Positions 1 through 58,800 of a stretch of DNA of 64,000 nucleotides are shown piece after piece; within the stretch, counting starts at the first letter, position 1; every line of letters starts with the position of its first letter. The notes under the pieces are model-generated. The model was not told where the DNA came from. It ran no database searches and saw nothing but the letters and a program-made list of their open reading frames with translations. The stretch comes from Pocillopora damicornis (Eukaryota). The stretch is taken from positions 682,001-746,000 of the forward strand of contig NW_020844944.1 of assembly GCF_003704095.1 (NCBI RefSeq). Reading direction: 5' to 3'. The translations under genes were made by a program, and so were the position numbers.

Positions 1-108
1 TTGAACCCTCTTGCAGGAGAGAGCGACGCTGTGAAAGGAATCAGGATCGTCCAAAAAGGAAATAATTCTGCAAAGGCAGTCATCATTGAGAGTCGAGAAG
101 GACGCCAT
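1..108 (-). CDS. F-box-like tandem paralog, copy 1 (5' part only; runs off the window start)
   Basis: ATG at 108 reads MASFSTLNDDCLCRIISFLDDPDSFHSVALSCKRVQ, near-identical to the N-termini at 4282 and 10044. The upstream DNA 109-1150 is homologous to 4283-5437. Confidence 0.8.
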   Translation of the reverse strand, partial: MASFSTLNDDCLCRIISFLDDPDSFHSVALSCKRVQ

Positions 109-617
109 AATGACAAAATGGAACGAATGAGGTCCGCATCACGTACATACAATTAGTTACGGGCTAAGGTGTTACACGCTATTCACAGCTTTCTAGAATT
201 TTCTTCACTTCCTTATCCCTGTAAATATAGCATATCGCTCGAGAGTTTCCATCTAAATTATACCTGTTCTTAATTTTTGCATTCAGTAAAGAATGTAGCT
301 TGATGATGGACATCTAGCTTTTGAATCCACATGAAAAATATTGATTATAGCTATTTTTACAGTGCTCATAATCATTTGTGAATTTTGTCATTCTTAAAAA
401 CTCTTTTACAAAATGAAAAAAACAAAAAACAAAAAACAAAAAAGACAATAGATTAAATTTAAGAGCCAAAAAGAATAATGCTCCCAAAATTACCACCCTG
501 TCAATGTAACAGCAATATCCTTAAAGGCATTCCTTTATTTGAAACTCAACTCATTACAAACACAATTCAACCACAAGAGGTAAAAAAAGGAACAATCATA
601 AGAGTGAAGAGGGGCAT

Positions 618-850
618 GTTACTAAAGAAACTGTGATGCTGCATCAGTGGGGGAATATAACAGGGTAAATAAGTATTATCAACTGAGTTGATCACATGAA
701 TTGGCCATCATAATGAGTTTCAAAACTGATATTTTGAGCATTAGCCCTTTGTCAGAGCAAATGACAAAGGGCTCTGATGGTTGAAATGTCAACTTTGAAA
801 CTCTTTACAGTGGCCAATTTATGTTATCGACCCAGTTGATGATACTAAAT
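618..850. repeat. Palindromic interspersed repeat (CTGAnGAAGGGCT...GAAA type); other copies ~4760-5040, 9217-9310, 23890-24110, 26260-26355, 38020-38240
   Basis: Shared blocks ctaaagaaact..gctgcat, atcaactgagttgat, tagccctt..tcagag and aagggct..gaaatgtca recur at the listed positions, often as an inverted pair. Confidence 0.7.
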
Positions 851-1344
851 CATGAGAGTGAGAACTATATCCAATATCTGAGTTTTGTCAACCTAAACAA
901 GATCCTTGAGTTAATAAAATTTATAAAATGTTTATATTCTTTACTTTTCTGTGTTAAATGAACTGAATGGCCAAATGACTGTGAGACTGTGCTGAAAAGT
1001 CTTATCACCCAAATGAAAGATTTTGGCTGATGTACATCAACCCCTAGGGGGAAGACTAAAATAAACAAAGCCGCAAAACTGACATTAACCCTTTAAACCA
1101 TTATCGGTATGCATCTTCTCCATACTGTTCTCAGTACATTTACTGAGGTTGTTAATACAGTCAAAGTCCTTGCACTGTTATGTTGACTAATTTCAACTGT
1201 CCTTATGATTAAAATACTGTTAAAAGTCATAAAGTAGGTGAAAAGTTTATTGTTCATGAATCACTATGTTCCTCTCTTCACTCTCTTCATATGATCCTTC
1301 CTCACTAGACTATGTATGGATCAGATTCTTGTCATGTCTTTTCT

Positions 1345-4282
1345 TCAAAGGAATGTTTGATCTTCTGTGCCAAACTTCATGGCATGCAAAAGATAAGAGG
1401 CTGTAAAGTGGTCATCTAACTTGGGGATGTGCTCCTCTCCTTCCATGCATTTATTCACACTCTGCTGAAATAGCTCAGTAACTGGACTCAACATTTCAAC
1501 TTGAAGAGGTTCACTCCAATATCTGCAGGTTGCATCCAGCTCCAATAATTTGCCATCCGGTAGGGTGACTGTAAGCTCCAATTCACTCCAAGTAGGGGAG
1601 CTTGCCCCATCCCCATGCATGCCACCTGCAGCTGTCACAACTTTACCTCCTGAAAACCTGAATGAAGCTTCACCTTGTACAAACTTGTCTGCAATTGAAC
1701 CAGGGTCGTAATCACTAGACACAAGCTCTGTTCGCAAAAGTAAGTCCTGCACAAGTGGTTTGGGGAGTAGTTTCTGCTTAAGGTCTGATGCAATCTCATA
1801 AAAGACATTGGTATCCCTTTGAAGCTTTTCAAAGAATTCTGTCTCTGATCTCTGGATCAAGACTGCCATAATTTGGGCAATCAGACTGGAGAGGTTTGAA
1901 TCAGGATCATTCCATCCAGAAACCAAGTTTTTCAAGCTGGTATCAGCTTGAAGGTTCTGATGAAACAGATCCATAGCTGGCTGAACATCCTCAGGGGTGG
2001 GTGTTACATTCCTAGATGGGTCTTCAAAACTAAGCTTGTGTTCTGTTGCCAAGGTTCTCTGGTGTGGAAAGAAGTAACACAACCAGACAAAAAAATTGTT
2101 TGTCATCGGAGGAACTGTCTCACCAAGCTCCTTCTGCAGGAGTTCCACGACTGGTTTCATTGGTTTAACCACTGCTTGAACTTCTTTTTCTTTCCAAAAC
2201 TCATAATCGCTAGGGCAATAGCGGATGTAACTCTCACAAAATGGTACTCTGCCTTTGAAAATGGTAATTTAATCATAGAGTAAAAATAGCATTAGAAACA
2301 GTCTACTTACATAGAATTGTGCATAATACCGACAGATGTAAAAGGGCAGCTTACCCATAACTGCTACAAAATTGATAAACATAAAATACCTCTGCACTTT
2401 ATCACAGACAATCAGTAGAGGGTCCTAAAATAACTTTTCCTAAAATTCAAAATTAACCTGATTTTCATTTAAATTGTCATTTTTCCTTGAAAAGAGGTGG
2501 TCACCTTAGTCATCCACACCCATGTTTGCCACAAAAACCTTGTTTTAGGTTCAAATTTTTTACAATTATTTTGGCTGGGATACTTAACTCGCCATTGAAA
2601 CCCAAGCAGGCATATTGCAAAAATAAAGGATACTTACTGGATAATTCAATCAATTTATCAGCCAATCCTTGACTCACTCACTCACTTCCACACCCAACTA
2701 TTTCCATCTTCCCTTTTGTCATTTATTCATTCAGTCAGTCTGTCAATCACTCAGTCAGTCACTGTATCAATCAGTCAGACAGTCAATTACTATCTCAGAC
2801 AGACACTCAGTCCCAAAGGCCTTTGCGCACTGGGCTGACCATTTTTTTTTTTGCTCCAGCAAAAATCTTGAGAAGATTTATCCCCCTCAAATTTACAAGT
2901 GGTTAATTTTAATAATCATTTGTTAATCACCACATGCCAATCCCATGGATATACAACTTTAGCAGTACTTGAACCTGGGAATTCAACATGAATGTAAACT
3001 TGGGAGCCATAATGGTGTACTCTGAATATCCTGAGTACTGACTGCCATGCAGCATTCCAAGGTACAAAATTAATCTTCCATCCTCACCCTTTGATTGCCG
3101 GATATAAATTAAATATTCTGGCAGCCTTCTGCCTAGAAGACTCGCACTCAAAGAGTGAGATCAAATTTTTTTAGATAATGTTTTCCTTAAATTATGACTT
3201 GTAAATTGAAAAATCTGTCAGATTTCATGCCAGACAAAAATTTTTCTTATCCCAAGGCAAGTAAATGGTGTCTGTTTTGTTGAAGAAATAGGTGTCATCT
3301 TTTATTGACAGTTTTTCATTATGCTGAATGATTGAAAATCTTACTGATTAACATTTAACAATACACTGAGTTTGCATTTTGAGTCAGTTCAGTCCAATCA
3401 GATGTCAAAGTCAGAGCAAAGTTACTATTTACACTGACCAGAAGAAGTATTCAGAAGTATTAAGGCTAACCGGTAAAATTTCCTAACAGCCCCATACTAC
3501 ATTATGCATTCAGTTCTTGGATAGAGAAAACAATGACAAAAACAATACATTGCCACTGGGAAAACAGATTTTCCCAGTGGCAGTATGGGGCTGTGCGGAA
3601 AATTTACCAGTCAATCACTCTCTCCATTCAGTTACGGTCAACCAATTTTACTGTGAACAGAGCTACAGTCAACTAATCTTTAATAAGCTTAAATGCATCA
3701 AAAACAACCTGCAAACTCACCTTCTGACTTTACATCCAAATCTCCACAAGTTACTTGAATGGTCAACTCGCCGTCGTTATCACCGCTGTGATCGTAAAAG
3801 ATGGTGGTATCGATCCTTAAGTCCTTGTCACAGCCTGGCAAATGCAACGTGACACTTAGATATTCGGTAAAACAAGTCTCTCCCAGTTCGCTTTCTTCTG
3901 TGCTACTCTCCTGATTTCTGATCCATGTCAACAATTTAGCTGCCACGGGTCCGTTTCTCTTCCAAGCATTTACTACTTTTGCATAAGTAAGGAATTCCTT
4001 AGCTGCTGTAAGGCGCGCAGCATTGGAGAAAATATCTTCCAAATCGCTAAACTTGTTGTAGCCATAGTCGCTCTCGTCATCGGTGATTTCCACAAGGTAG
4101 CATTTTATGTAATATTCAGCTTTTACTCGCAGCAACTTTGGATGGAGAATGCTCCGAGTGTTGTTAATCACCTGTTGAACCCTCTTACAGGAGACAGCAA
4201 CGCTGTGAAACGAAACCGGATCGTCCAAAAAGGAAATAATTCTGCAAAGGCAGTCATCATTGATAGTCAGGAAGGAGGCCAT
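1345..4282 (-). CDS. F-box-like tandem paralog, copy 2 (two exons, C-terminally truncated, possibly decaying)
   Basis: Exon 1 is 4282-3721 (donor GAAG|GTGAGT, phase 1). Exon 2 is ~2252-1345 (in-frame acceptor TTTCAAAG|), giving ~489 aa. N-terminal LTINDDCLCRIISFLDD...SCKR resembles an F-box. TGA at 1345 replaces the GGA of copy 3. Confidence 0.75.
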
Positions 4283-5437
4283 ATTGGTTACAATTTAAAT
4301 TGAACAAATTAGGTCCGCATCAGGTACATACAAAAGTATAACACGCTTAACTACTTTCTCGATTTTTTTCTCTTCCTTATCCCTGTGAATATGGTTTATC
4401 GCTAAAGAGCTTTCATCTGAATTATTCCTGTTCTTAATTTTTGCATTCAATAGGGTATACAACTTGATGATGAAAACCCAGCCCTTTAATTGAATCCACA
4501 TGAGAAATATTTGTAATTATTTTTACAATGCTTATAGTCATTTGTGAATTTTGTTACTCTCAAGGACTCTTTTACAAAATGAAAGGAAAAAATGAGATTT
4601 AAATGAAAAGCCAAAAAGAAATGCTCCCAAAATTATCACCCTGTCAATGTATCAGAAATATTCTTAAAAAGTATTCCTTTATTTGAACCTCACCTCTCTG
4701 CAAACACAATTCAATCAAAATAGGTAAAAAAAGAACAATTATAAGAGTGAAGGTGGGTATGTTTCTAAAGAAACTATGTTGCTGCATTGGTGGGAGAGTA
4801 TAACAGGGTAATTTAGTATGATCGACTGTGTAATATTAATTGGCCACGGTAAAGAGTGTCCGAAAGCTTACTTTTGAGCAATAGCCCTTCATCAGAGCAT
4901 ACAACAAAGGGCTAACGTTCAGAAGTAAGCTATGACACTCTTTATGGTGTCAGAGCAAGGGTTCTGATGCTTGAAATGTCAACTTTGAAACTCTTTACAT
5001 TGGACATTATTTATGTCATCAACCTAGTTGATAACACTAAGTCATGCGAGTGGACAACTATATACCGCATTTGAGTTTTGTTAACCTAACCAAGATAATA
5101 ATTCCTTAAGTTAAATAATAAAACTAATAAAATGTTTGTATTCTTTACTTGTATGTCTTAAATGAACTAAAGTGCCAAATAACTGTAAGACTACGCTGAA
5201 AAATGTTATTACCCAAATGAAAGATATTGGTTAATACAGTCCCTAGGGGGAAGACTAAATTAAACAAAAAAGCAAACAAACAAGAAAACAAACAACACAT
5301 AAAAAAAAGGTAACAAAACTGACATTAACCCTTTACACCCTAACATCAGTATGCATCTTCTCCATACTGTTCTCAGTACATTTCCTAAGGTTCTGGCAAG
5401 GAGAATTTGTCTACCAGTAACAATTAAGAGCTTGTTT

Positions 5438-5537
5438 NNNNNNNNNNNNNNNNNNNNNNNNNNNNNNNNNNNNNNNNNNNNNNNNNNNNNNNNNNNNNNN
5501 NNNNNNNNNNNNNNNNNNNNNNNNNNNNNNNNNNNNN
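5438..5537. other. Assembly gap (100 N) inside the tandem array
   Basis: Run of N. Confidence 0.99.
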
Positions 5538-5784
5538 AGAGAGAGTTACCGCAAGAGATTGCTCATTTCAAGGAACTTTGAAGACAGCAGTGAGATTATG
5601 TCAGTGGTGAGCCTGGGTAGAGACTGCGGTGGGCTTAATTAAGTTTATTAACAATAAGTATTGTGCTGCTTTTAGGAGTTGCTCCTTGTTAAGAACATTA
5701 CTGGCTGTTTAATAAAGTAGTTGAATTTGTTGGATTGTAATGTTTTTCTGTCAGTTAGATTATGCTATAACATGAGTGAAAAGT

Positions 5785-8700
5785 TTATTGTTCATCACTC
5801 TGTTCTTCTTCACTCTCCTCCGATGATTCTTCCTCACTAGATCCTGTACTGATCAGATTCTTAAAATCCTTCTTTCCAAGGAATGCTTCATCTTCTCTAC
5901 CAAATTTCAGGACATGCAACAAATAAAAAGCCGTAAAACGATCATCTAACATGGGGATGTGCTTCTCTTGCTCCATACATTTACAAATACCTTGTTGAAA
6001 TAGCTCAGTAACTGGACTCAACTTCTCAATTTCAATAGATGGTGCGTGACGTCTGTAGCTTGCCAACTTGAATTCCTTGCCATCTGGTAAGGTGACTTTA
6101 AGCTCTAGTAAGTCATCCCAAGATGATTCTCCTCTCCCATCCCCATGAAAACCACCCCAAACTTTCACCACTTTACCTTCTGAAAACCTGAATGATGCTA
6201 TGCTTTCTACAAACTTGTTTGCAATTGAACCAGGGCTGTAATTACTGAATTCAAGTTTTGTTCGCAAAATCAAGTCCAGCAAGAGCCTTTTAGGCAGCAA
6301 CTTTAAGTCATAATCTGAGGTAATCCGATAAAAGCTTTCAGCAACCCCTTCAAGCTTTTCAAGGAATTTTGTCTCTGATCTCTGAATTAAGACAACCACA
6401 GTTTTGGCAATCAGACTGGAGATGTCTGACTCAGTATCATTCCATCCAGACACTAGACTTTTCAACTTGGTTTCAGCTTGAAAGTTCTGATGAAACAGAT
6501 CTATAGCTGGCTGAGCATGGCCTGGGGTGGGTTTTTCATTCCTAGATGGGTCTGTAAACCTGAGTTTGTGTTCTACTACCAAGTTCTTTTTGTGTGGAAA
6601 GAAATAACACAGCCAGATAAAGAAAATGTCTGTTATTGGAGGAACTGTATCACCAAGCTCTTCCTGTAGGAGTTTCACCACTGGTTTCATTGGTTCAACT
6701 GCTTCATGAACTTCTTCTTCTTTCCAGTACTGGTAATCATCTGGGCAATTGTGGGTGAAATCTGTACAAAATGGTATTTTGGCTTTGAAAATAGTATTTT
6801 GACCCTATAGTCAACATAGCATTCAAGACATGCCTGTTGATGTAAAAAAGTGCACAACACTATCTGATTTAATATGTTAACTTGCTCACAACAAATTCCA
6901 ATTCACTTTGATACATACATTCAGTAGAAGCTAACTTTACCAGGCATTTTAGAGCCTGCTTTGTTTTTTTGTTTATAACCTGTAATTTTTCTTTGAAAAA
7001 GAGGGGTTGAATACACCCTAGGACCTTAGTCAACCACACCGGTATCCAATCAAGTCGCCAACGGTTTAACTCACCAACCTCAACTTGCCAACATATAAAA
7101 TCAAGTAGGGACATTGGCGAGTTGGTCTTCAATCCAGTACAACTTATTAGAAGTTAAAGATATAGAAAAGTAAAAGATCTTTAATAAAAAAACATTTTCA
7201 TTTTTTTTCTTCCAACAAAGTTTATATGGATCTCATGGTGAATAAAGCAAGGTAAACATCGCCAATGACTGTAAAAGCTTCAGACGTGAACGAGTTATTG
7301 TGCAACAACAACACCATAAAGATTCATCATGTCAATCGGTCAGATTTTTTTAGAAAACTTGGCTTTCTAGACAAGATCTTTAGTAAAAAACAATTCTTTT
7401 TATTTCCAACAAAGTTTATGAGGATCTCAAGGCGAATAAATCAAGGCAAACATCACCAATGACCAAAAAAGCCTTAGACACGAACAAGTTATTGTGTGAC
7501 AACAACACTCTAAAGACTTATCATGTCAATCAGTCAGATTTTTTTAAAAATACTTAGCTTTCTAGATAAGATCTTTAATGGAAAAAATTCTTTTTATTTC
7601 CAACAAAGTTTATTGGGATCTCAAGGCGAATAAAGCAAGGTGAACATCGCCAATGACCAAAAAAGCTTTAGACGTGAATGAGTTATTGTTTCACAAACAA
7701 GAATCATCATAGATTCATGCTTTGGTAGCTCACTTTTGAAGGTGTTTATGTTTGGTCCATCCTAATACCAGGCTATGCCGGTGAATGGCCATAAAAATAC
7801 GATAAGTATCTAACCAGAAGCTGACCAGAACCCAAAGGAGGGCTGATAGGCAAAGTAAGTTGTTTGGATTTTGGGAGAAACATGAGTCATTGCTGATGTT
7901 TACCTTGCTTTATTCACAATGAGATCCATATAAACTTTGTTAGAAGAAAAAAATTTTTTTTTTTTTAACTAAAGATCTTTTACTTTTCTTTATCTTTAAC
8001 TTCTAATAAGTTGTACTGGATTGAAGACCAACTCACTGACACCTCTACTCAATTTTATACATTGGCAAGTTGGTGTTGGTGGGTTGAACCATCGGCAACT
8101 TGACTGTAATTCACCACACCCATGTGTGCCAAACCTTTTTTTTTTGGTGCAAGTATTTTCATGACTATTTGGCTGGCATGACTTAGCACACCATTTAAGC
8201 CCAACCAGGCATGGCATAAAAAAGAGAGGTTATTGGATCAGTTAATGAATCAATAACTGACTTATTCATTTAATCAGTCACTTCCATAGCCCCTTCCTCT
8301 CATCATCTCTTTCATCATCAGTCAGACTGGTCAGACTCTCTCAGTCAGCCAGTCTGTCAGTCAATAAAGCTGATCAGACTCTCTCAGTCAGTTAGAAAGA
8401 TAGTCAGTTAGTCAGTCAATAAAGCTGGTCAGACTGTCAGTCAGTCAGTCAGTTGATGAAGCTGGTGAGACTCTCTCTGTCAGTCAATCTGTCAGTCAAT
8501 AAAGTTGATCAGACTCTCAGTCAGTCAGTCAGTCTATAAAGCTGGTCAGACTCTCAGTCAGTCAGTCAATAAAGCTGGTCAGACACTCAGTCAGTCAGTC
8601 AATAAAGTTAGTCAGACTCTCAGTATGTCAGTCAGTCAGTCAATAAAGCTGGTCAGACTCTCTCAACCAGTCAGTCAGTCAATAAAGCTGCTCAGACTCT

Positions 8701-10044
8701 CAGTAAGTCAGTCAGTCAGTCAATAAAGCTGGTCAGACTCTCTCAACCAGTCAGTCAGTCAATAAAGCTGCTCAGACTCTCAGTCAGTCAGTCAATAATG
8801 CTGGTTAGCCTCTCAGTCAGTCAGTCAGTCGATAAAGCTGGTCAGACTCTCAGTCAGTCAGTCAATAAAGCTGGTTAGCCTCTCAGTCAGTCAGTCAGTC
8901 AGTCAGTCAGTCGATAAAGCTGGTCAGACTCTCAGTGAGTGAGTGAGTCAGTCAATAAAGCTGGTCAGACTCTCAGACAGTCAGACAGTCAATAAAGCTG
9001 GTTAGACTCTCAGTCAGTCAATAAGTCACTTAATTAGTCGGTCACTCTCTCAACCTCTCAGTCAGTAACTCACTTAATCAGTCTGTCTGTCAGTTAGTCA
9101 GTCACTCACTTGGAAAGTCAGTTGGTCACTCTGTCAATCTGTCAGTAATCAATCACTCAGTCAGTCACTCTCTCAATCAGGCAGCAGTCTGCCAGTCAGA
9201 CACTCTCTTGTATTTACTCTGACGAAGAGCTACATATAATGCTTTAAACTTCAGCTCTACAAACTCTTTACATTGGCCAATTTACATTTATTTATCAATT
9301 CAGTTGTTGAAAACATGACTCTCTCAACCATTCTGTCAATCAATCAGTCAGTCAATCAGTCACTCTCTTAATTAGTCAGTCATTCACTCAGTCAACAGTC
9401 AAGTCAGTCAACTGAACGAGTTGAATGACAGTTATCAGCAATGCAGTCAACTAAACTTGAATGCATCAATAACAACCCGCCGACTTACCTTCCCATTTTA
9501 CATCCATATCTCCACAAGTTATGTGGATGCTCAACTCGTTGTCGTAATTATTGTAGTAGTCATAAAAGTAGGTGGTATCGATCTTTAAGTCCTTGTCACA
9601 GCCTGGCAAATGCAACGTGACACTTTGATATTCGGTAACACAAGTCGCTCTTGGTTCACCATTTTCAGTACGACTCTCCTGATTCCTGATCCACGTGTAC
9701 AGTTTAGCGACTACAGGTCCGATTTTCTCCCAAACATTCACCAATTTCGCAAAAGTCAGGGTTTTCTTAGCTTCTGTAAGACGCACAGCATTGGAGAGAA
9801 GATCTTCCAACTTGCTAAACTTGCGGTAGTCGCTCTTGTCATCGGTGATTTCCACAAGGTAGCATTTTATGTAATATTCAGCTTTCGCTAGTAGTACCTT
9901 TGGATGGAGAATGCTCCGAGTGTTGTTAACCACCTGGTTAAATCTCCTGCAGGTAAGAGCGAGGCTGAGAAAGGAGGACGGATCATCCAAAAAGGAAATA
10001 ATTCTGCAAAGGCAGTCTTCATTGAGAGTCAAGATGGAGACCAT
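5785..10044 (-). CDS. F-box-like tandem paralog, copy 3 (two exons, intact, acidic tail)
   Basis: Exon 1 is 10044-9489 (GAAG|GTAAGT) and exon 2 is 6761-5785 (TTTGTACAG|). Together 1533 nt = 510 aa + stop, ending SSEEESSEESEEEQSDEQ. Colinear with copy 2. Confidence 0.85.
7041..8112. mobile_element. Non-autonomous foldback-type DNA transposon with ~230 bp TIRs and 8 bp TSD
   Basis: 7041-~7270 is the imperfect reverse complement of ~7886-8112. There are internal ~195 bp tandem units. ACCACACC is duplicated at 7033-7040 and 8113-8120. The empty site is present in the paralogous intron at ~2505-2530. Confidence 0.85.
8315..9420. repeat. Composite (CAGT)n minisatellite in the intron of copy 3
   Basis: Roughly 20 units of ctctcagtcagtcagtcaataaagctggtcaga (33-45 bp, variable CAGT number) at 8320-9020, followed by degenerate CAGT repeats. 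Confidence 0.95.
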
Positions 10045-12793: not shown

Positions 12794-15425
12794 TTATAGT
12801 GATAGCAGAGCTGTATGGCACATGGGGCATTTGTCTTGGACATTTAACCATTTTCGAAGGCATAAACTGTGAAAATAATGTCTACAAGGAGTTACTTTTG
12901 CAGCTTTCAACTCCTCCAAACAGATTGAACAAACATCTTCAAGTTCATCAATTTCTTTCTCTGTTGCTGATGGCAATGAGTTCAGTTTTTGATTCACCTG
13001 ATGACGCTGTTTTAAACTTAGCCAACCTTCCTTAGCAGGAGTCCAGATATTAAAGTAGAGATGCAGCACTGCCATAACAATTTGAAACAGTGTCCACTCT
13101 AAACTGAAGTCACAAACTCTGTAGAAAAGAACGGCTGAGATGACCACAAATTCAAAAACTTTACAGGAGCCATTGATGAAGTACACATAGTCATCCAGTT
13201 CTTCCCATATTTGAGTTTGACGTGACTCGTACACATACAAGAAGTACAATACAAGTGCAGCAATTATCTGAGCAATGGTAATGACATTTGGAGTAATGAA
13301 AGGAATTTTCTCTTTTAAAAAGTACAAATTTACCGCCAGATAAATAGACGCTCCCAGGAGTGAAATGCAAAATGACAAAACACGTAAATGTTTGCGGTAG
13401 ATGATGCTTGGTTGTGATGCAAGCCCCAAGAGAACAGGTTCAGTTATTTCAAACATTGATCTTGCTAAAGCTGAAATGATTAGATAAAAAATCAATTCCA
13501 AAAGCACAAGCTTTCTACTTATCTTTGAACTTGAAAGTCCAGTGTAAAGACCAAGAAAGAAAAATCCGAAACCTTCTCTAAGACCATCAGGAGAGCTGTA
13601 AGGGTCACCAGGGGGGGCAATGTTATCCTCATGATGGTATCGTTTGATGATATTCAGTATATATCCAGATAGCTTGTAAATTATGAAACAACATGATGTC
13701 ATTGAGAGAACTGAGTTGCAAGTTAAGGCCATTGTTAAATTAAACAGCTGCAAAACTGTTACTGATTCACTGGAGAACAGCAAAAAACTCAAACTGTTGT
13801 ATAAAAATAATATCCCCCATAGAGTCATCATACAGAACGGAACTTTCACTCTGCGCCAGTGAAACACAACAGTGACAGTCAACCCATACATTCTGTACAT
13901 CCACTGGATAATTTGTGCTGATGTAATAAAATGCGTGACAATATCATGAATGCACTGATAGGTGCCTGTTATAGCCAAATAAAACGCAAAACCAAAGCAA
14001 ATGCAGAGCCATAAGGGTGGATCATCTTTCTGATTTGAAGCTGACATATGCCGTAACATAACAGGGAACGCTGCCATTGAAAACATAACTGGTTTCAAAG
14101 AGTTATACACCCGTGAGTACATTCCAAGTGATATTAAATAGACCATCCAAGCTCCAGTTATCATTAATAGCAGAAATATTGCACCATCTTCCGTAATCAA
14201 CTTTGAGAGACCTTGTTCCTCTAAGGCATTGTACAGATTTAAGCTGTTGTATGCATTCAAGTACAGCATAAATGTCACCACAGTAATGAAAAGAGAGTGG
14301 CTGTAGAAATTAATGAGTTCATCTCGGCCAAGAAGGGATAGTACCAAACATAAAATGATTCCTAAAACAAAAAATGCAATAGAACCAGGTCATTAATATA
14401 AGTTATGGTTAAAGACAGACCTCCTGATACAGAATGTTGTGTACTCTTGTTAACCCCCTCCCAAGATCTCATGAATAATTCTCCTTACTGTCTAGCATAC
14501 AATTCTTATCGTGTAAGTGCTGAGAATTTGGTATGGGATCAACTACTAATCCCCATGTTGATGTTTTTGTTTATTCTCATCACTTGCCTGTTTGATATCG
14601 TATTGATATTGTAAGGAGAAATTCTATCTTGGTCATTCATGGGAGTTAAAGGGTTAATTTTTTCAATAGTTTGTTTCCATATAAATACCATTAAGAAATA
14701 ATAATAGTTATAATTATAATAATTAAAACAGTCATCACAACAGTAAGTATTAAATATATAGGACAAAATGATTATGCATTCCCTTTCAGATATGTTAAGA
14801 CATTGAAAAATAACGAAAACTAGGGCGAAAACATCATAACCCAGAGAGAGTGAAAAGAGCATAATTATTTACTTGTATTGCTTCTCTGGTCCACCGAATG
14901 GCATTTAGAATCAGTGCGATGAGCTTAGATTTACTACATTATTTTAATTTCGCAATAAAGGAAAAAATGTAATTAAAAAAAGGTCTTTGGCCAAAGGTTC
15001 ATTCTCAGAACAGCAGGAACTTCCGAAACTGCTTGCTCATGTAAACACACAGTCAAAGAGACAGGGCTGATTGATATACCAACTCCTGTTAATGGGTTCA
15101 AGCTTATAATAAAATTCTAAAACATGGATAACGGACTGAAAGTCTAGGACGCCTGATCAGCGTATCTTTAAGCTCAAAATAACTAAATTCGACAAAAAAC
15201 GTAACAAAAAACGTAACAGAAAAACTGGATATATAATCACCTATACCATGGCTTTAAAGCCTTTAAAAAACACGTTAATGTGATCAAAATGAGATCAAAC
15301 TCACCCGATAGCTGCATTAATCTTGCATAAGGCGTCCAGTCACTGTAATGTGTGATATCCACGCAAAGGAACCACTCTAAAAGGACCAGAAACGGCACAC
15401 GAAATATAACTTCGCCCAACGCCAT
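12794..15425 (-). CDS. RNF139: TRC8/RNF139(RNF145)-family multi-pass ER membrane RING-H2 E3 ubiquitin ligase
   Basis: Exon 1 is 15425-15305 (MALGEVIFRVPFLVLLE..., phase 1) and exon 2 is 14361-12794, giving 562 aa. Many TM helices and HLYFNIW are present, with a C-terminal RING-H2 CSIC...TPCRHYFHSLCLRKWLNVQDKCPMCH. RNF139 versus RNF145 orthology is not certain. Confidence 0.85.
14454..14653. mobile_element. ~200 bp MITE with TTAA TSD in the RNF139-like intron
   Basis: TTAA|CCCCCTCCCAAG ... TGGGAGTTAAAGGG|TTAA; internal sequence matches the copy at 26588-26782. Confidence 0.85.
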
Positions 15426-52888: not shown

Positions 52889-55800
52889 TCAGCCTAGAAA
52901 ACAAAGGACAGTGGGTCTCTTCAGTATTATGTCCTTATACAGGAAAGGTGGGTAGGAAGGTGAGTGATGCAAGATCCAAGTTATCCCCAGTTGACTATAA
53001 AACTCAACCTAGAGTCTTACTTTCCTGAACATGAACTAAACCACATACAGATATTTATTTTAACCACAAAAAAAGTGTCTTTAAGGTTTTCTAACGATCT
53101 TGAGTTAACATTATGCCAACTATTCCTCATATTTTTTGAAGGATATAATTTATTTAAAACTAACTCTTTGTACCTAGACGTTTCGAAAAGAGTCTGTCAT
53201 GAGTTCCATCATGACACCTCGCTTTAGAGCTAGAAAAACGTCAAATGATACTCACTGCAGAAGCCGCAAGTCCACTTGCAAACCTCTTTGACGTAATCCA
53301 AATAGTTAGGATCAGTGCACATTCCGTTTTGTTTGTACCCTGGACAGTACTGAGGATAAACATCCTTACAATTCCCTGATCCACCTAGAGAGAAAGCAAA
53401 ACGAACAGGTTCATCCCCTTCCCCTTCCCGAGCCAAAAGGCCCGCATTTCTGAAGCTCACAGCGATCGCGACTTTTGTAACATGAAGCGATGGGTAGTAT
53501 TGCTACTACCCCTGAAAGGAACGATAGTCCATTCCAGGGTTACCCCAAAGAATTTCACCTGGTACCCGAGATGAGAGGCATTGTGAGAGTAACGCATCTA
53601 GCCCCTGTCTGGCACAAGAACATTATACAGTGACTCTGGTCCGGGCTTGACCTTAGACCTCCCGGTTTGGAATTTAAAGCGGAAAACTTTAGGCCACCAC
53701 ACCTCGTTAACTATTTACACATGCGCCCTGCGGGAGGCCTGAGCTTAAAAGGCTCCTAGCGTATGCGTGAGTACACGCTTTTTTGCAAGTAGACCTTATG
53801 GGGGCCTTATGAACTAATACTGAGAAGCATATGGAAACTCTGTGGGAAAGGGTCAACACTTTTCACATACATTTCAAATGCTTTTCACGTGCCTTTCACC
53901 TGCATATGAAGATTAGACTGCGCTCAAGTTTAACCCTAACTAGCGCCATTAACAGGAAACGTGAGACTTTTTAGACGGTACTTGCATAAAAGTGGCCACT
54001 CTTACGATTAAGGATTCTTCCTTTCTTCGTCACATTGGTAATAATCGTTTTACCTACCACAGAATCCGCAGGTAGCAGGGCAGACACTGGTCATGTAGTC
54101 GACATGAGTGGTGCACATTCCCCTTTTCTTGTAGTCGGGACAGTATTTAGGATAAACGTCTTTGCAGTTTCCGGTTGGTTGTGTGGTAGGCTTGGGAGGC
54201 TGGGGTGGCTTAGTTGTAACAACAGGGGGTGGGGTAGGCGCTTGAGTTGGTCCTGCATTGAAAGATACGAAAAAGTAGCTGCATATCTTTTCGTGTTTAT
54301 CTTTTTCTGGAATGTTTGTAAGCAGAAAATGAAAAAATTCATTGCGTTTGACTTTCATCAGGAGTTAATCAGGAATTCTGGGTGTAACAAAACTGACAAT
54401 ATTCTTGGCTGACTCGATAAGTTTCTGATTAATTCACCTTTGCACTGAGCGCATGTTCTCTCACAATGCGCGTTCATCCATATTGGGTTCTTAGAACATT
54501 CGCCACCAGCTCCCCAGGTCTCGCACGCCACTGGGTACACATCCTGACAATCTTAAATTTAAATCGCAGGAAAGTCAACGAGGGATAAAGAAGCAGGTAA
54601 GAGAGATATTTCAGCAAAGAAAAGACCAAATTTTTGCGAGATCTCCAAAGAAGTAATCGCTTTACAAACCACGGTGAGTTCCATTAGTGTATTCTGTAGT
54701 TATGTTTTCCTACGAGCTAGATATATAATGATGTTAAACAATAAACATACTGTGCTATTTTTATACCTCTCAATGTCTCCATTTCAAAGAGTCAAGTGAG
54801 TTTAGGAGAAACGAAGAACTCGTTCATTTAGTGATTACATTGAAGAAATGTAAAATGGTTTCCGTGTTTACATAGCCTGATGTAAACACGCGGGAGGTTG
54901 GGAGAACACGAGATAAGCGTAGGAAACCACGACGCGAAGCGGAGTGGTTTTTAGCTTATCGAGTTTTTCCAGCTTATCGAGGGTTACGCCGTTCCATCTA
55001 TATATGTATCTTCCTTACTCTTACGTGACATCGCACTTAAATTAATATGTAATATGAATTGAAGACTCTCAGACTTTGGCGAAGATTGTGCATATACTCA
55101 ACGATAAATGATTCATGTTTAAGATCCATAAAGCTCACCAGAGGGGGGCTCTGCAAATAAATCAAACAAATGAATAAGATAATTGCGAAGAAAATAAATT
55201 TAAAAAAAGTGCAATCTTTGAATGGTCAATATTGTGACATCATACCTCCGCATGTTCTGCAGCTTTTGGCGCAATTCGTCGACATCCACATGAGATTGAG
55301 CCCGCATTCACCCGAGTTCATCCAACCTTGACAGTCGTTGTACTTATCCTCGCATTTACATTCTTAGGGAGGAGAAACAGATTAAACAGAGAGGTAAAGT
55401 AAGCATGATTTTTACGGCCAGCGGCAAACAACAAAAAATTGAAACTCGTGCAGTCTGCTTTCATCCATTTTTACTCTTTACGCAAAGTAGAGGGGAAAGG
55501 AATGGGTTAAAAAGTTGATGATCAACTCACGAGATGGATCTGGATTTCCACTTCCGGGCAAAACTGCAACAACAAAGAACGGTAGCGGTCAATGTAGCTG
55601 TGATCGAACAGCTAAATCAAGGACAAATACTTAAACTCAGCTTCTTGTTGAGTTTTAAATGAAATTAAATATGGCGTGGAACAACGGAAAATTGGGTCTA
55701 TAAAGATAAATTATAATCTTATCTGCTCTCCTAGCCAGCCTTCATTGAGCGTTTGGTGGCACTATCAATGCCAATGAGACCTCGGTTGAAACGAGAACTA

Positions 55801-58800
55801 TGTCTTTGGGCAGTGATCCAGTTATCAATTACAACACCAATTTTGCAGAGGGACTGGTGCAACACTGATTACCTAGAAATCTCATTGGACAACTAGGTCT
55901 TCTACAGGATTTTGCATAAAGAGGGTCTTATATTAACTTCTCAGTGCCACTTGTGTGTGTGTTGAGGGGAAGGGGGGAGGGAGTGTTTTAGCAAAATTTA
56001 ACATTATTTTTTCTTGGCAAAGAGGGAGGTTAGATGTATCCTTGGATCTCATCTTGATTTATTTGCCTTGATCATGAAAATAATAATAAAGAAAATAAAT
56101 TGCCAAGCAAAAATGTAAGAAACGGTAATAGCTTTAGCTTCAACCGCTCTCTAATTTACCTGTAGGAGGAAGTTGGTTTGTCTGACAACTATAAAGTTTG
56201 TTGATTTTCTGTATGTCTTGGGGACTGAACTTCCTCAGGTAAACTGGTGTCACTTCGTACGATGGATCTTTCTTAACAAGCATAGTTGGACGGCAGTAAC
56301 CGTTGGTAAACGCAGAGTTCTCGTAATGCATGATGGATGTCAGATCGTACTTGAAGCCTTGGACATCTGCCTCATCAAAAGTGTACTTGCGAAAAGCGTC
56401 CTTGAAACCTTTAAGATTGAAGAGAAGATCATAGTTAATACTCAACAGCAAGATTAAAAAGGAAAAGCTGAGCAATGATTGGACTCTGACATGAAGCCAC
56501 CAGAGGCTCTGCTTTTTTCAGATGATGTCATGAATCCGACAAAATTTTTTGCTCTTTTACTTTGAATTCATTGATTCTGATGAGGCACCACCATTGTTGG
56601 AACAAACGACATGTTATTCAGAGGAGATAAACAGTAAGTACTCAGAGTACATATATTCTAGGCTCAGATAAAATGAATAGATCATTACAGGGAAAACATG
56701 ACAGAACATTGGCCGACGCGTCACCAGAAAATTTACCTTAGATTCCAAAATCTTTTTCGAGAAGGGATAAAAAAATAATTTCTCACCGTACTGAACGTTG
56801 TCCCACAAAATGTTTACATTATCGTCACGGTCAGGCCTGTTGTGTTCGTGAAAGTAGCCGATTGCGTGACCAAACTCATGAAGAACCAGGCCAACATACT
56901 GGCAGCCATCTCCCATATTTAGGATTTGTTCCCCACCGATCGCGCCCACCATTGAGTTACATCTACAAGAGATTTACGAGAGAGAAAAGTTTCCTACGAT
57001 AGTTATCAACCGTTTGGCTTCGTAGGCTCGGATATCCTTCCGATATCCAGGAGTATACCAAAGATATGTCTCCCAGGCTACCTCAGGTCGTAAGCCGGCA
57101 GAGGAGCCCATCCGACATCCCACCGATCATGAGGAAGGATGTGAAGGGTTACACCGTTACAAGTAGCAGAGACAGACGACGTCTGAGGCTCCTTCCCCCT
57201 TCCCCCTTTCCACCCATCCCCACTTACCTGACAAAGAAACAAACCCTTGAAACCTCGATTACTCATCACTTAAAAGAAGCGGAGGGAAATTACTACTGAT
57301 ACTTATTATATGGCTGACCCCTGGAAACCAAGGTATAGCAAGTTACGTTTTTTTGATTAAGGGAGGCCAAATCAGCCTTTCTCCCGCTTGCAGTTTCCGC
57401 CTCGCTCCCACAAAGTATAACTTTTTTGCAATAATGCTTTAGCCAAATGCTTCATTGATCAGACTCATTCAGTCAAGCCCTCCAAAAACGAAAGAAAAAA
57501 GTCCTGTGGTGGCCTTGTTCCGCTCAATCGCCAAAACTCCATCCTGTTTCTTCACAATATTCTCTGTGATATTTATACTCCTAACTGAGAGACTAAAAAT
57601 AGAAAAAGGTGAAATTTGAGAAACAAACGCTGGTGTTTTCCAAACCTTATGAGAAAAAAATTGTGTCATGTTCTCAAAAAATTAAAATTCTCACTAGTCA
57701 TTATGTTTAGACACCTTACCCTGATGCTGGTTTGACAATCCTGATATAATCTCTTTGGTTCGTCCTCTTCACAAATTGTAGACATGTGTATTTATGATAT
57801 TCTCTGATGCCTTCCTCGATCTGGCTTTTCAGGTGATCATCTAAGACACAAAACAATAAAAGGAGGAGAAGAAGGAAAGGCAAGTTCTACATATATATAT
57901 TTTAATGAGTGAATAAATGTCATAAACATTTAAATAGATGGATAACTGACTAACTGATGCCGAAAGATGTGCAAGATTAGTTTATACTTAAACAGTACGT
58001 AATGTTGAAAGCGCACTCTCATTGGTTACCCAAACCCCGAACTCGCGCGGGATTTGCTCCCACAAATATTATCTTTGCAGGAAAAAAGAGTTAAAATCAT
58101 CTTTTTGTGCTAAATTATTCCACTGTTTTAGTATCTACGTAAACAAATATTTACCTCCACTTCGACACAGTAGTAGTTGTTAAATACCGCAGAAAGCACT
58201 GCAAGAGTCGCAATGTTTGGTGTCTTACTTACCCACGCTGGAATCAAGAATGTAAGGCACCACTCCGTTTTTCCATAGGTTCACGTTTTTCATGGCATTT
58301 CTGGTTTCTCCACGGTAAAGAGAGGCAGTTTTGCTGTCCAGCATGATATCCCCTTCGACGATATCTATGACAAAACAAAAAAGTTTACTCCTTCAACCGA
58401 AAGAATATCAACTGATCAGTTTTTAATCTCTTAATTTAAATCAATACTCCATCAGGTTCTCTCTTTCGGGGTGCTACTATACGAGGAGAACAACATCGCT
58501 TTCTTGCTGCTATACTTTTTCTTAAGAGTTGAGTCTTAAAATTTTGTGTTTAGTCAGATTATACCCTCCAAACAGTAACAACTGTTTTCAGGACAAAGTG
58601 TTAAAATTACTTTGTAAATTTGCATGATTTACACTTTTACACTTCTGAGAGATAAAAGATGGGTGTGTAATGCAAAGGCTGACATAACTCTAAAAATACA
58701 CACTAGGCATCAAATCAAATCAAATCTTGTTACCTCCAGCCCGCAAAAATGTTCTCACTTTGAAATTCTTTGTGAATATACCGTAACCTGGTGGCCTGGG

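What the first reader, a model, noticed from the sequence alone, without database searches (positions are those of the whole stretch)
1..10044. Tandem array of at least 3 F-box-like genes fused to an unrecognised ~450 aa region
Seen: three head-to-tail paralogs (ATGs 4174 and 5762 bp apart) share gene structure and flanking DNA, but their proteins have diverged substantially. Known: F-boxes bind SKP1 in SCF ligases, and fast-evolving tandem F-box arrays in nematodes and plants are linked to host-pathogen conflict. The usual partners (LRR, WD40, Kelch, FBA) are not visible here. Inference: a lineage-specific family of SCF substrate adaptors with a novel recognition domain, possibly in immunity or symbiosis. 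The F-box has LN in place of the usual LP, so the assignment is moderate.
Basis: partly seen in the sequence, partly recalled or inferred. Interest (0 to 1): 0.7.

Follow-up and report, generated by a model that had tools for sequence, protein, structure and literature searches.

The report
Coral F-box trio, undescribed doubled domain
A stony coral carries three neighbouring copies of a gene (two shown to be spliced in RNA) whose protein starts with an F-box predicted to dock on the cell's protein-destruction machinery and continues with a twice-repeated domain that matched no catalogued family or solved fold, and that likely picks the still unknown targets.

Summary
Observation confirmed. Three head-to-tail, minus-strand, two-exon paralogues (A 510 aa, B 489 aa, C 513 aa; 65-77% identical) lie in a pocilloporid coral genome. 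The introns of A and B are spliced in public RNA runs. Searches of this assembly found only these three plus one F-box-only relic. A's F-box passes Pfam cut-offs, and a co-fold with coral SKP1 scores 0.82 against 0.02 for the best control. The remaining ~465 aa are not one unit: a helical scaffold carries two homologous beta-meander+helix domains (profile-profile probability 92.7%), and A and C end in an acidic tail. No Pfam, NCBIfam or fold match was found; only repeat 2 was folded alone. The family spans stony corals and sea anemones, plus one unnamed high-GC sequence that keeps the hairpin-loop motifs. C keeps all four loop motifs, A three, B one. Best reading: an undescribed family of SCF substrate adaptors with loop-level retuning after duplication. 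An immune arms race is not shown: dN/dS is about 0.45-0.6 and the site test on the trio is not significant. The scan noted unrelated fungal F-box arrays before, but not this family.

The parts
9489..10044 (-). Gene A exon 1 (ATG at 10044; F-box, helical linker, first part of repeat 1)
   Evidence: splice joint in 3 of 3 RNA runs
9916..10035 (-). F-box of gene A (residues 4-43)
   Evidence: PF12937 30.0 bits (cut-off 24.3), PF00646 26.6 bits (cut-off 20.5); SKP1 co-fold
6762..9488 (-). Gene A intron, 2727 nt, GT..AG, phase 1; holds a MITE-like inverted-repeat element (7047-8106) and a TCAG-type satellite
5785..6761 (-). Gene A exon 2 (end of repeat 1, helical linker, repeat 2, acidic tail, stop)
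6595..9732 (-). Repeat 1 of the undescribed domain in gene A (residues about 105-241; split by the intron: 9732-9489 and 6761-6595)
   Evidence: secondary structure of the model of a relative; profile match to repeat 2; boundaries
5899..6300 (-). Repeat 2 in gene A (residues about 340-473): helix, five-stranded beta-meander, two helices
   Evidence: AlphaFold2 model of this stretch, pLDDT 87, pTM 0.82; no clear fold match
5788..5898 (-). C-terminal tail of gene A, acidic (11 D/E in the last 30 residues); present in C, absent in B
5438..5537 (.). Assembly gap downstream of gene A's stop, next to a dispersed repeat end (5324-5437)
3721..4282 (-). Gene B exon 1 (F-box below the Pfam cut-off, 14.6 bits)
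2253..3720 (-). Gene B intron, 1468 nt; acceptor shifted upstream against A and C
   Evidence: joint in 4 of 4 runs; candidates
1345..2252 (-). Gene B exon 2; early TGA, no acidic tail
   Evidence: the same short end in two database clusters of 162 and 41 members
1..108 (-). Start of gene C (first 36 codons, F-box); the rest lies in the adjacent contig DNA (L005 10000-9553 and 8758-7773)

Best explanation
These are three paralogous coral genes for a likely SCF ubiquitin-ligase substrate adaptor: the N-terminal F-box is predicted to bind SKP1, and two homologous beta-meander+helix domains on a helical scaffold likely bind the target, which would then be ubiquitylated and degraded. Shown: gene structure, splicing of A and B in RNA, the F-box profile match for A, the internal duplication, the family's spread in corals and anemones, and synteny with a neighbouring gene in another coral. 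Predicted: the fold and the SKP1 interface. Inferred: in each repeat two long Gly/Asp/aromatic hairpin loops lie at the same end of the meander sheet (from strand order, not from coordinates) and form the binding surface; C keeps the ancestral loop set, while A and above all B have altered loops and so likely altered or relaxed specificity. The target is unknown; I favour an endogenous cytosolic protein or modification recognised by the conserved-loop members, with duplicates drifting or retuning under weak constraint.
For: F-box: (A above both cut-offs); 32 of 66 family members hit PF00646 at E<=0.05; the family profile hits the F-boxes of MAX2, SKP2, beta-TrCP and FBXO3 in the PDB, best E 8.5e-4, and nothing else at E<0.2. 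SKP1 co-fold: score 0.82, best of 3 controls 0.02, runs agree in at least 94% of contacts, partner pLDDT at least 82; the mark was reached by 51 of 78 solved complexes and 2 of 108 mismatched pairs (eukaryotes: 71 of 105 and 2 of 126); SKP1-F-box complexes are solved, so the pass may rest on likeness. The genome encodes SKP1. Internal duplication: hhalign probability 92.7%, E 4.4e-7 over 86 columns, matching strand/helix order in both halves. Loop conservation: the distant high-GC relative P0081 is identical to coral P0024 at 22 of 34 loop positions against 99 of 387 elsewhere (Fisher p 6e-6; loops picked after seeing the alignment). 14 of 108 near-full-length relatives keep all four loop motifs; C keeps 4, A 3, B 1. 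Purifying selection overall: dN/dS 0.44-0.47 by NG86, 0.62 by ML. Synteny: the gene downstream of C also lies downstream of the family gene on contig L028.
Against: No binding, ubiquitylation or substrate data. The F-boxes of B and C score below Pfam cut-offs (C tested as a 36-residue piece) and were not co-folded. The co-fold used a Porites SKP1 as stand-in and ignored the alignments. With the first, shallow alignment the two halves did not match (probability 1.4%). The full-length model is of a relative (P0024; pTM 0.68), and loop clustering in 3D was not measured. dN/dS is high for a strictly conserved gene, and B has an early stop, a shifted acceptor and a long branch (0.22 vs 0.076 for C), which fits decay as well as retuning.
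Confidence: 0.72

Rival explanations
1. The family is a diversifying intracellular immune or symbiosis surveillance system, like nematode and plant F-box arrays: each paralogue targets different microbial or symbiont proteins for degradation.
For: Most paralogues have changed the putative binding loops. Six intronless paralogues from other coral assemblies give a significant M1a/M2a test (omega 5.0 at 11% of sites, p 3.5e-9). The nematode precedent is stated in the abstract of PMC8120010.
Against: Only three copies here. The trio's site test is not significant (p 0.22; three sequences, low power), nor is that of seven intron-clade relatives (p 0.40). The one significant clade is a block mosaic (incompatibility test p 0.002), from gene conversion or chimeric assembly, which is known to inflate this test (own knowledge). 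Repeats do not evolve faster than linkers in the trio. No expression data under infection or symbiosis were examined.
Confidence: 0.15
2. Only one copy (C, possibly also A) is functional; B is a transcribed duplicate on the way to becoming a pseudogene, and the array is neutral birth-and-death.
For: B has an early stop, lost 3 of 4 loop motifs, shifted its acceptor and has the longest branch; an F-box-only relic lies elsewhere in the genome.
Against: B is spliced in frame in 4 of 4 runs, its short end recurs in two large database clusters, and B/C dN/dS is 0.45. A is sister to a Stylophora gene (SH-aLRT 100, quick tree), so two lineages have been kept since before those genera split.
Confidence: 0.25
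3. The F-box binds SKP1 but the protein works outside an SCF ligase (scaffold, SKP1 sink or enzyme), the doubled domain having a catalytic or nucleic-acid-binding role.
For: Conserved D, H, Y, W residues in Gly-rich loops could line an active site; non-SCF F-box complexes are known in yeast (own knowledge, recalled).
Against: No polar residue is invariant across the 66-sequence alignment; the near-invariant positions are L143, E217, F251, N257 of P0024, outside the loops.
Confidence: 0.1

Closest known systems
FBXO-class F-box proteins (F-box plus 'other' domain), substrate receptors of SCF (SKP1-CUL1-RBX1) ligases
   Same: N-terminal F-box (PF00646/PF12937), predicted SKP1 interface on SKP1's C-terminal helices, large C-terminal region in the place of the substrate-binding domain.
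   Different: The C-terminal region matches no Pfam or NCBIfam model convincingly in 66 members (best stray hit baeRF_family8 in 2 of 66, E 1.1e-4) and no PDB sequence; it is a twofold internal repeat with an acidic tail. No vertebrate name appeared among the named hits seen.
Expanded nematode and plant F-box arrays under positive selection (PMC8120010, abstract read)
   Same: Tandem paralogues, birth-and-death with relics, variable putative binding loops, larger clusters in some corals.
   Different: Three copies rather than a large expansion in this genome; no significant positive selection in the trio; different domain.
Tandem beta-meander+helix recognition modules: polo-box domains (PLK1/2/4) and RWD-type domains (CENP-P, Mediator Med17, BRE)

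Membership tests
F-box proteins / SCF substrate receptors | N-terminal F-box motif above the curated profile cut-off | tested here: met
   Gene A: PF12937 30.0 bits vs 24.3, PF00646 26.6 vs 20.5
F-box proteins / SCF substrate receptors | Same motif in copies B and C | tested here: inconclusive
   B 14.6 bits, C piece 19.4 and 16.6 bits, under the cut-offs, but 71-73% identical to A's F-box
F-box proteins / SCF substrate receptors | Binds SKP1 | tested here: inconclusive
   Co-fold passes (0.82 vs best control 0.02) but is a prediction for a textbook pair; no experiment
F-box proteins / SCF substrate receptors | Assembles with CUL1-RBX1 and ubiquitylates a substrate bound by the C-terminal domain | not testable with these tools
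   Needs biochemistry
FBXW / FBXL / F-box-Kelch / FBA classes | WD40, LRR, Kelch or FBA domain after the F-box | tested here: not met
   0 of 66 members hit such Pfam models at E<=0.05; the model has about ten strands in two meanders among long helices, unlike a propeller or LRR solenoid
Polo-box or RWD domain proteins | Structural match of the repeat to a polo-box or RWD domain | tested here: inconclusive
Arms-race F-box arrays (nematode/plant type) | Large copy-number expansion in the genome | tested here: not met
   3 genes and 1 relic found in this assembly; counts are lower bounds; up to 9 per contig inferred in other corals
Arms-race F-box arrays (nematode/plant type) | Positive selection concentrated in the substrate-binding domain | tested here: inconclusive
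   Trio p 0.22, intron clade p 0.40, intronless clade p 3.5e-9 but mosaic
Arms-race F-box arrays (nematode/plant type) | Induced by or acting on pathogens or symbionts | not tested
   Only assembled contigs of RNA runs were available; they give no expression levels

The most novel reading that the evidence does not exclude
The doubled beta-meander domain is a new substrate-recognition fold. Its four hairpin loops have been kept from sea anemones and corals to a high-GC, apparently non-coral organism because they read one conserved ligand (a degron or a modification), and corals use tandem duplication and segment exchange to retune these loops into a repertoire of intracellular sensors that send symbiont or pathogen proteins to the proteasome.
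Probability: 0.15. Interest if true: 0.72.

Novelty: new variant of a known kind. Interest (0 to 1): 0.42.

Why it matters
F-box proteins are classed by their substrate-binding domain. This family supplies a well-modelled, internally duplicated domain without a catalogued family or clear solved fold, present across reef corals and laboratory anemones (Exaiptasia), so its target can be sought directly. The natural loop variants in one locus (C ancestral, A and B altered) give a ready comparison. If the targets are symbiont or pathogen proteins, it would be a new arm of coral intracellular immunity; if they are host proteins, it is a modest addition to the SCF repertoire. Tandem F-box genes with unassigned C-termini are in themselves common.

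Full report
Setting. The window is animal DNA of about 37% GC with intron-rich neighbours (a TRC8/RNF139-type RING gene, an RRM gene, glutaredoxin, ankyrin, astacin, GPCR) from a 234-Mb assembly. The closest named relatives are from Stylophora, and the genome's SKP1 exon is identical to proteins named Pocillopora damicornis and Stylophora pistillata, so the host is a pocilloporid stony coral.

Observation. Three minus-strand genes begin at 10044 (A), 4282 (B) and 108 (C), 5762 and 4174 bp apart. Each has a first exon of 185-187 codons and a second of about 300-330. The A joint (6761/9489, GT..AG) is in 3 of 3 RNA runs laid; the fourth run, of unrecorded type, crosses the acceptor unspliced. 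The B joint (2252/3721) is in 4 of 4 runs from four studies. I laid 8 of the 22 runs listed. B lacks an AG at the position used by A and uses one further upstream, which adds residues, and it ends at an early TGA. C is complete in the neighbouring contig DNA (513 aa); its splicing was not tested, and only one low-depth RNA contig touches its 5' end. Pairwise protein identity is 65-77%. A profile search of the window and 30 kb beyond its start found no fourth copy; genome searches with three proteins found the trio and one 66-codon F-box-only relic near a reverse-transcriptase fragment on another contig. The genome holds at least 81 F-box-like matches in all.

The F-box. A passes the cut-offs of PF12937 and PF00646; B and the 36-residue piece of C fall under them. 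In the family, position 8 is N in 23, T in 19, P in 16 and D in 9 of 70 sequences, and C32 is invariant, so the missing proline is a family variant. Residues 1-70 of A co-folded with a Porites SKP1 give 0.82 against 0.02 for the best of three controls; the runs agree in at least 94% of contacts and partner pLDDT is at least 82. The mark was reached by 51 of 78 solved and 2 of 108 mismatched pairs. Since SKP1-F-box complexes are solved, this shows likeness, not binding.

Candidate binding surface. In each repeat the loops between strands 0-1 and 2-3 are long, and in an antiparallel meander they lie at the same end (inferred from strand order). They carry four motifs (about GEPRAT, DYGHNYD, PGSIA[DN]K, HGDGASYPTW). 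The distant P0081, whose residue make-up points to a high-GC genome (GARP/FYMINK 2.74 against 0.39-1.11 for the other 62 rows), matches coral P0024 at 22 of 34 loop positions but only 99 of 387 elsewhere (loops chosen after inspection). Only 14 of 108 near-full-length relatives keep all four motifs by my regular expressions; C keeps four, A three, B one. This pattern fits a conserved ligand for ancestral-type members and changed or lost specificity in many duplicates; it is inference.

Family range and history. A full HMMER search found 152 cluster representatives at E<=0.001. Named members are from Stylophora, Desmophyllum, Oculina, Montipora, Acropora, Exaiptasia, Actinia and Actinostola, all annotated as uncharacterised or F-box-containing; of 30 distant representatives looked up, 4 carried names, all sea anemones. 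A group at about 20% identity lies on unnamed megabase contigs. In a quick tree A is sister to the Stylophora gene and B to C; the pocilloporid copies group with Desmophyllum, Oculina and intron-bearing contigs (SH-aLRT 96), apart from Montipora, Acropora and most long single-frame members. The same intron is present in other corals, while other paralogues are intronless even within one assembly. The gene downstream of C also follows the family gene on contig L028, so the locus is a resident host locus. No relative was found in viral or prokaryotic collections, and transfer to or from the high-GC organism is not supported (p-AU 0.207).

Selection. Among A, B and C, dN/dS is 0.44-0.47 (NG86) with no structured region above 0.75 and 0.62 by maximum likelihood; M1a/M2a is not significant (p 0.22). 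Seven intron-clade relatives give p 0.40. Six intronless paralogues give p 3.5e-9, but they are block mosaics, from gene conversion or chimeric assembly, so that result cannot be trusted. L028 was left out of the codon tests as identical to L017, and frameshifted or partial loci (L025, L033-L037) were left out. The codon models are my own implementation with branch proportions fixed from IQ-TREE.

Mechanism and verdict. Most likely the proteins are SCF substrate adaptors: F-box to SKP1 (predicted), SKP1 to CUL1-RBX1 (established knowledge of SCF), target held by the loops of the two repeats (inferred), then ubiquitylation. An immune or symbiosis role, as for nematode F-box genes (abstract of PMC8120010), remains possible but has no support here. 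No paper on the family was seen in six searches (listings only, except passages of PMC7654579 and PMC5094078); supplements were not searched. Earlier notes of this scan hold no look-alike sequence but several unrelated fungal F-box arrays. The finding is real, the domain appears undescribed, and the kind of system is known: a new variant of a known kind, of moderate interest.

Noticed in passing
window 12794-14389 (-): A 531-codon open frame for a TRC8/RNF139-type membrane RING E3 ligase (TRC8_N E 1e-58 plus RING) lies 2.7 kb upstream of gene A, so a second ubiquitin-ligase gene borders the array.
   Followed up: partly
window 7047-8106: MITE-like element in gene A's intron: 146-nt inverted arms (85% complementary) enclosing three 194-bp tandem units.
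   Followed up: no
window 8300-9400 and 2640-2820: A TCAG-based satellite at the same intron position in A and B, expanded about sixfold in A.
   Followed up: no
L004 1363-1713 (-), own genome contig C2: F-box-only relic of the family (66 codons, about 52% identical), about 1 kb from a reverse-transcriptase fragment.
   Followed up: partly
L005 5555-6766 (+), beyond the window start: A 403-codon lysine/glutamate-rich open frame without Pfam hit, convergent with gene C and syntenic with the family gene in another coral (L028).
   Followed up: partly
L019-L024 (metagenome contigs): Intronless paralogues from other coral assemblies are block mosaics of two sequence types, with segment swaps of 20-60 codons: gene conversion or chimeric assembly.
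   Followed up: partly
L016-L037 and tree: The single intron is present in one clade of coral paralogues and absent in others, also within one assembly: intron gain in one clade, or loss/retroposition in the other.
   Followed up: partly
protein P0081 (unnamed 167-kb contig): A single-frame family member with a residue make-up typical of a high-GC genome, unlike corals; its organism is unknown.
   Followed up: partly
window 5763: Several RNA runs carry a 20-nt insertion just downstream of gene A's stop that the assembly lacks, probably an allele.
   Followed up: no
window 53200-57000 (-): An astacin gene with repeated Cys-rich modules that look like ShK domains (astacin by Pfam; ShK label recalled, not tested).
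   Followed up: no
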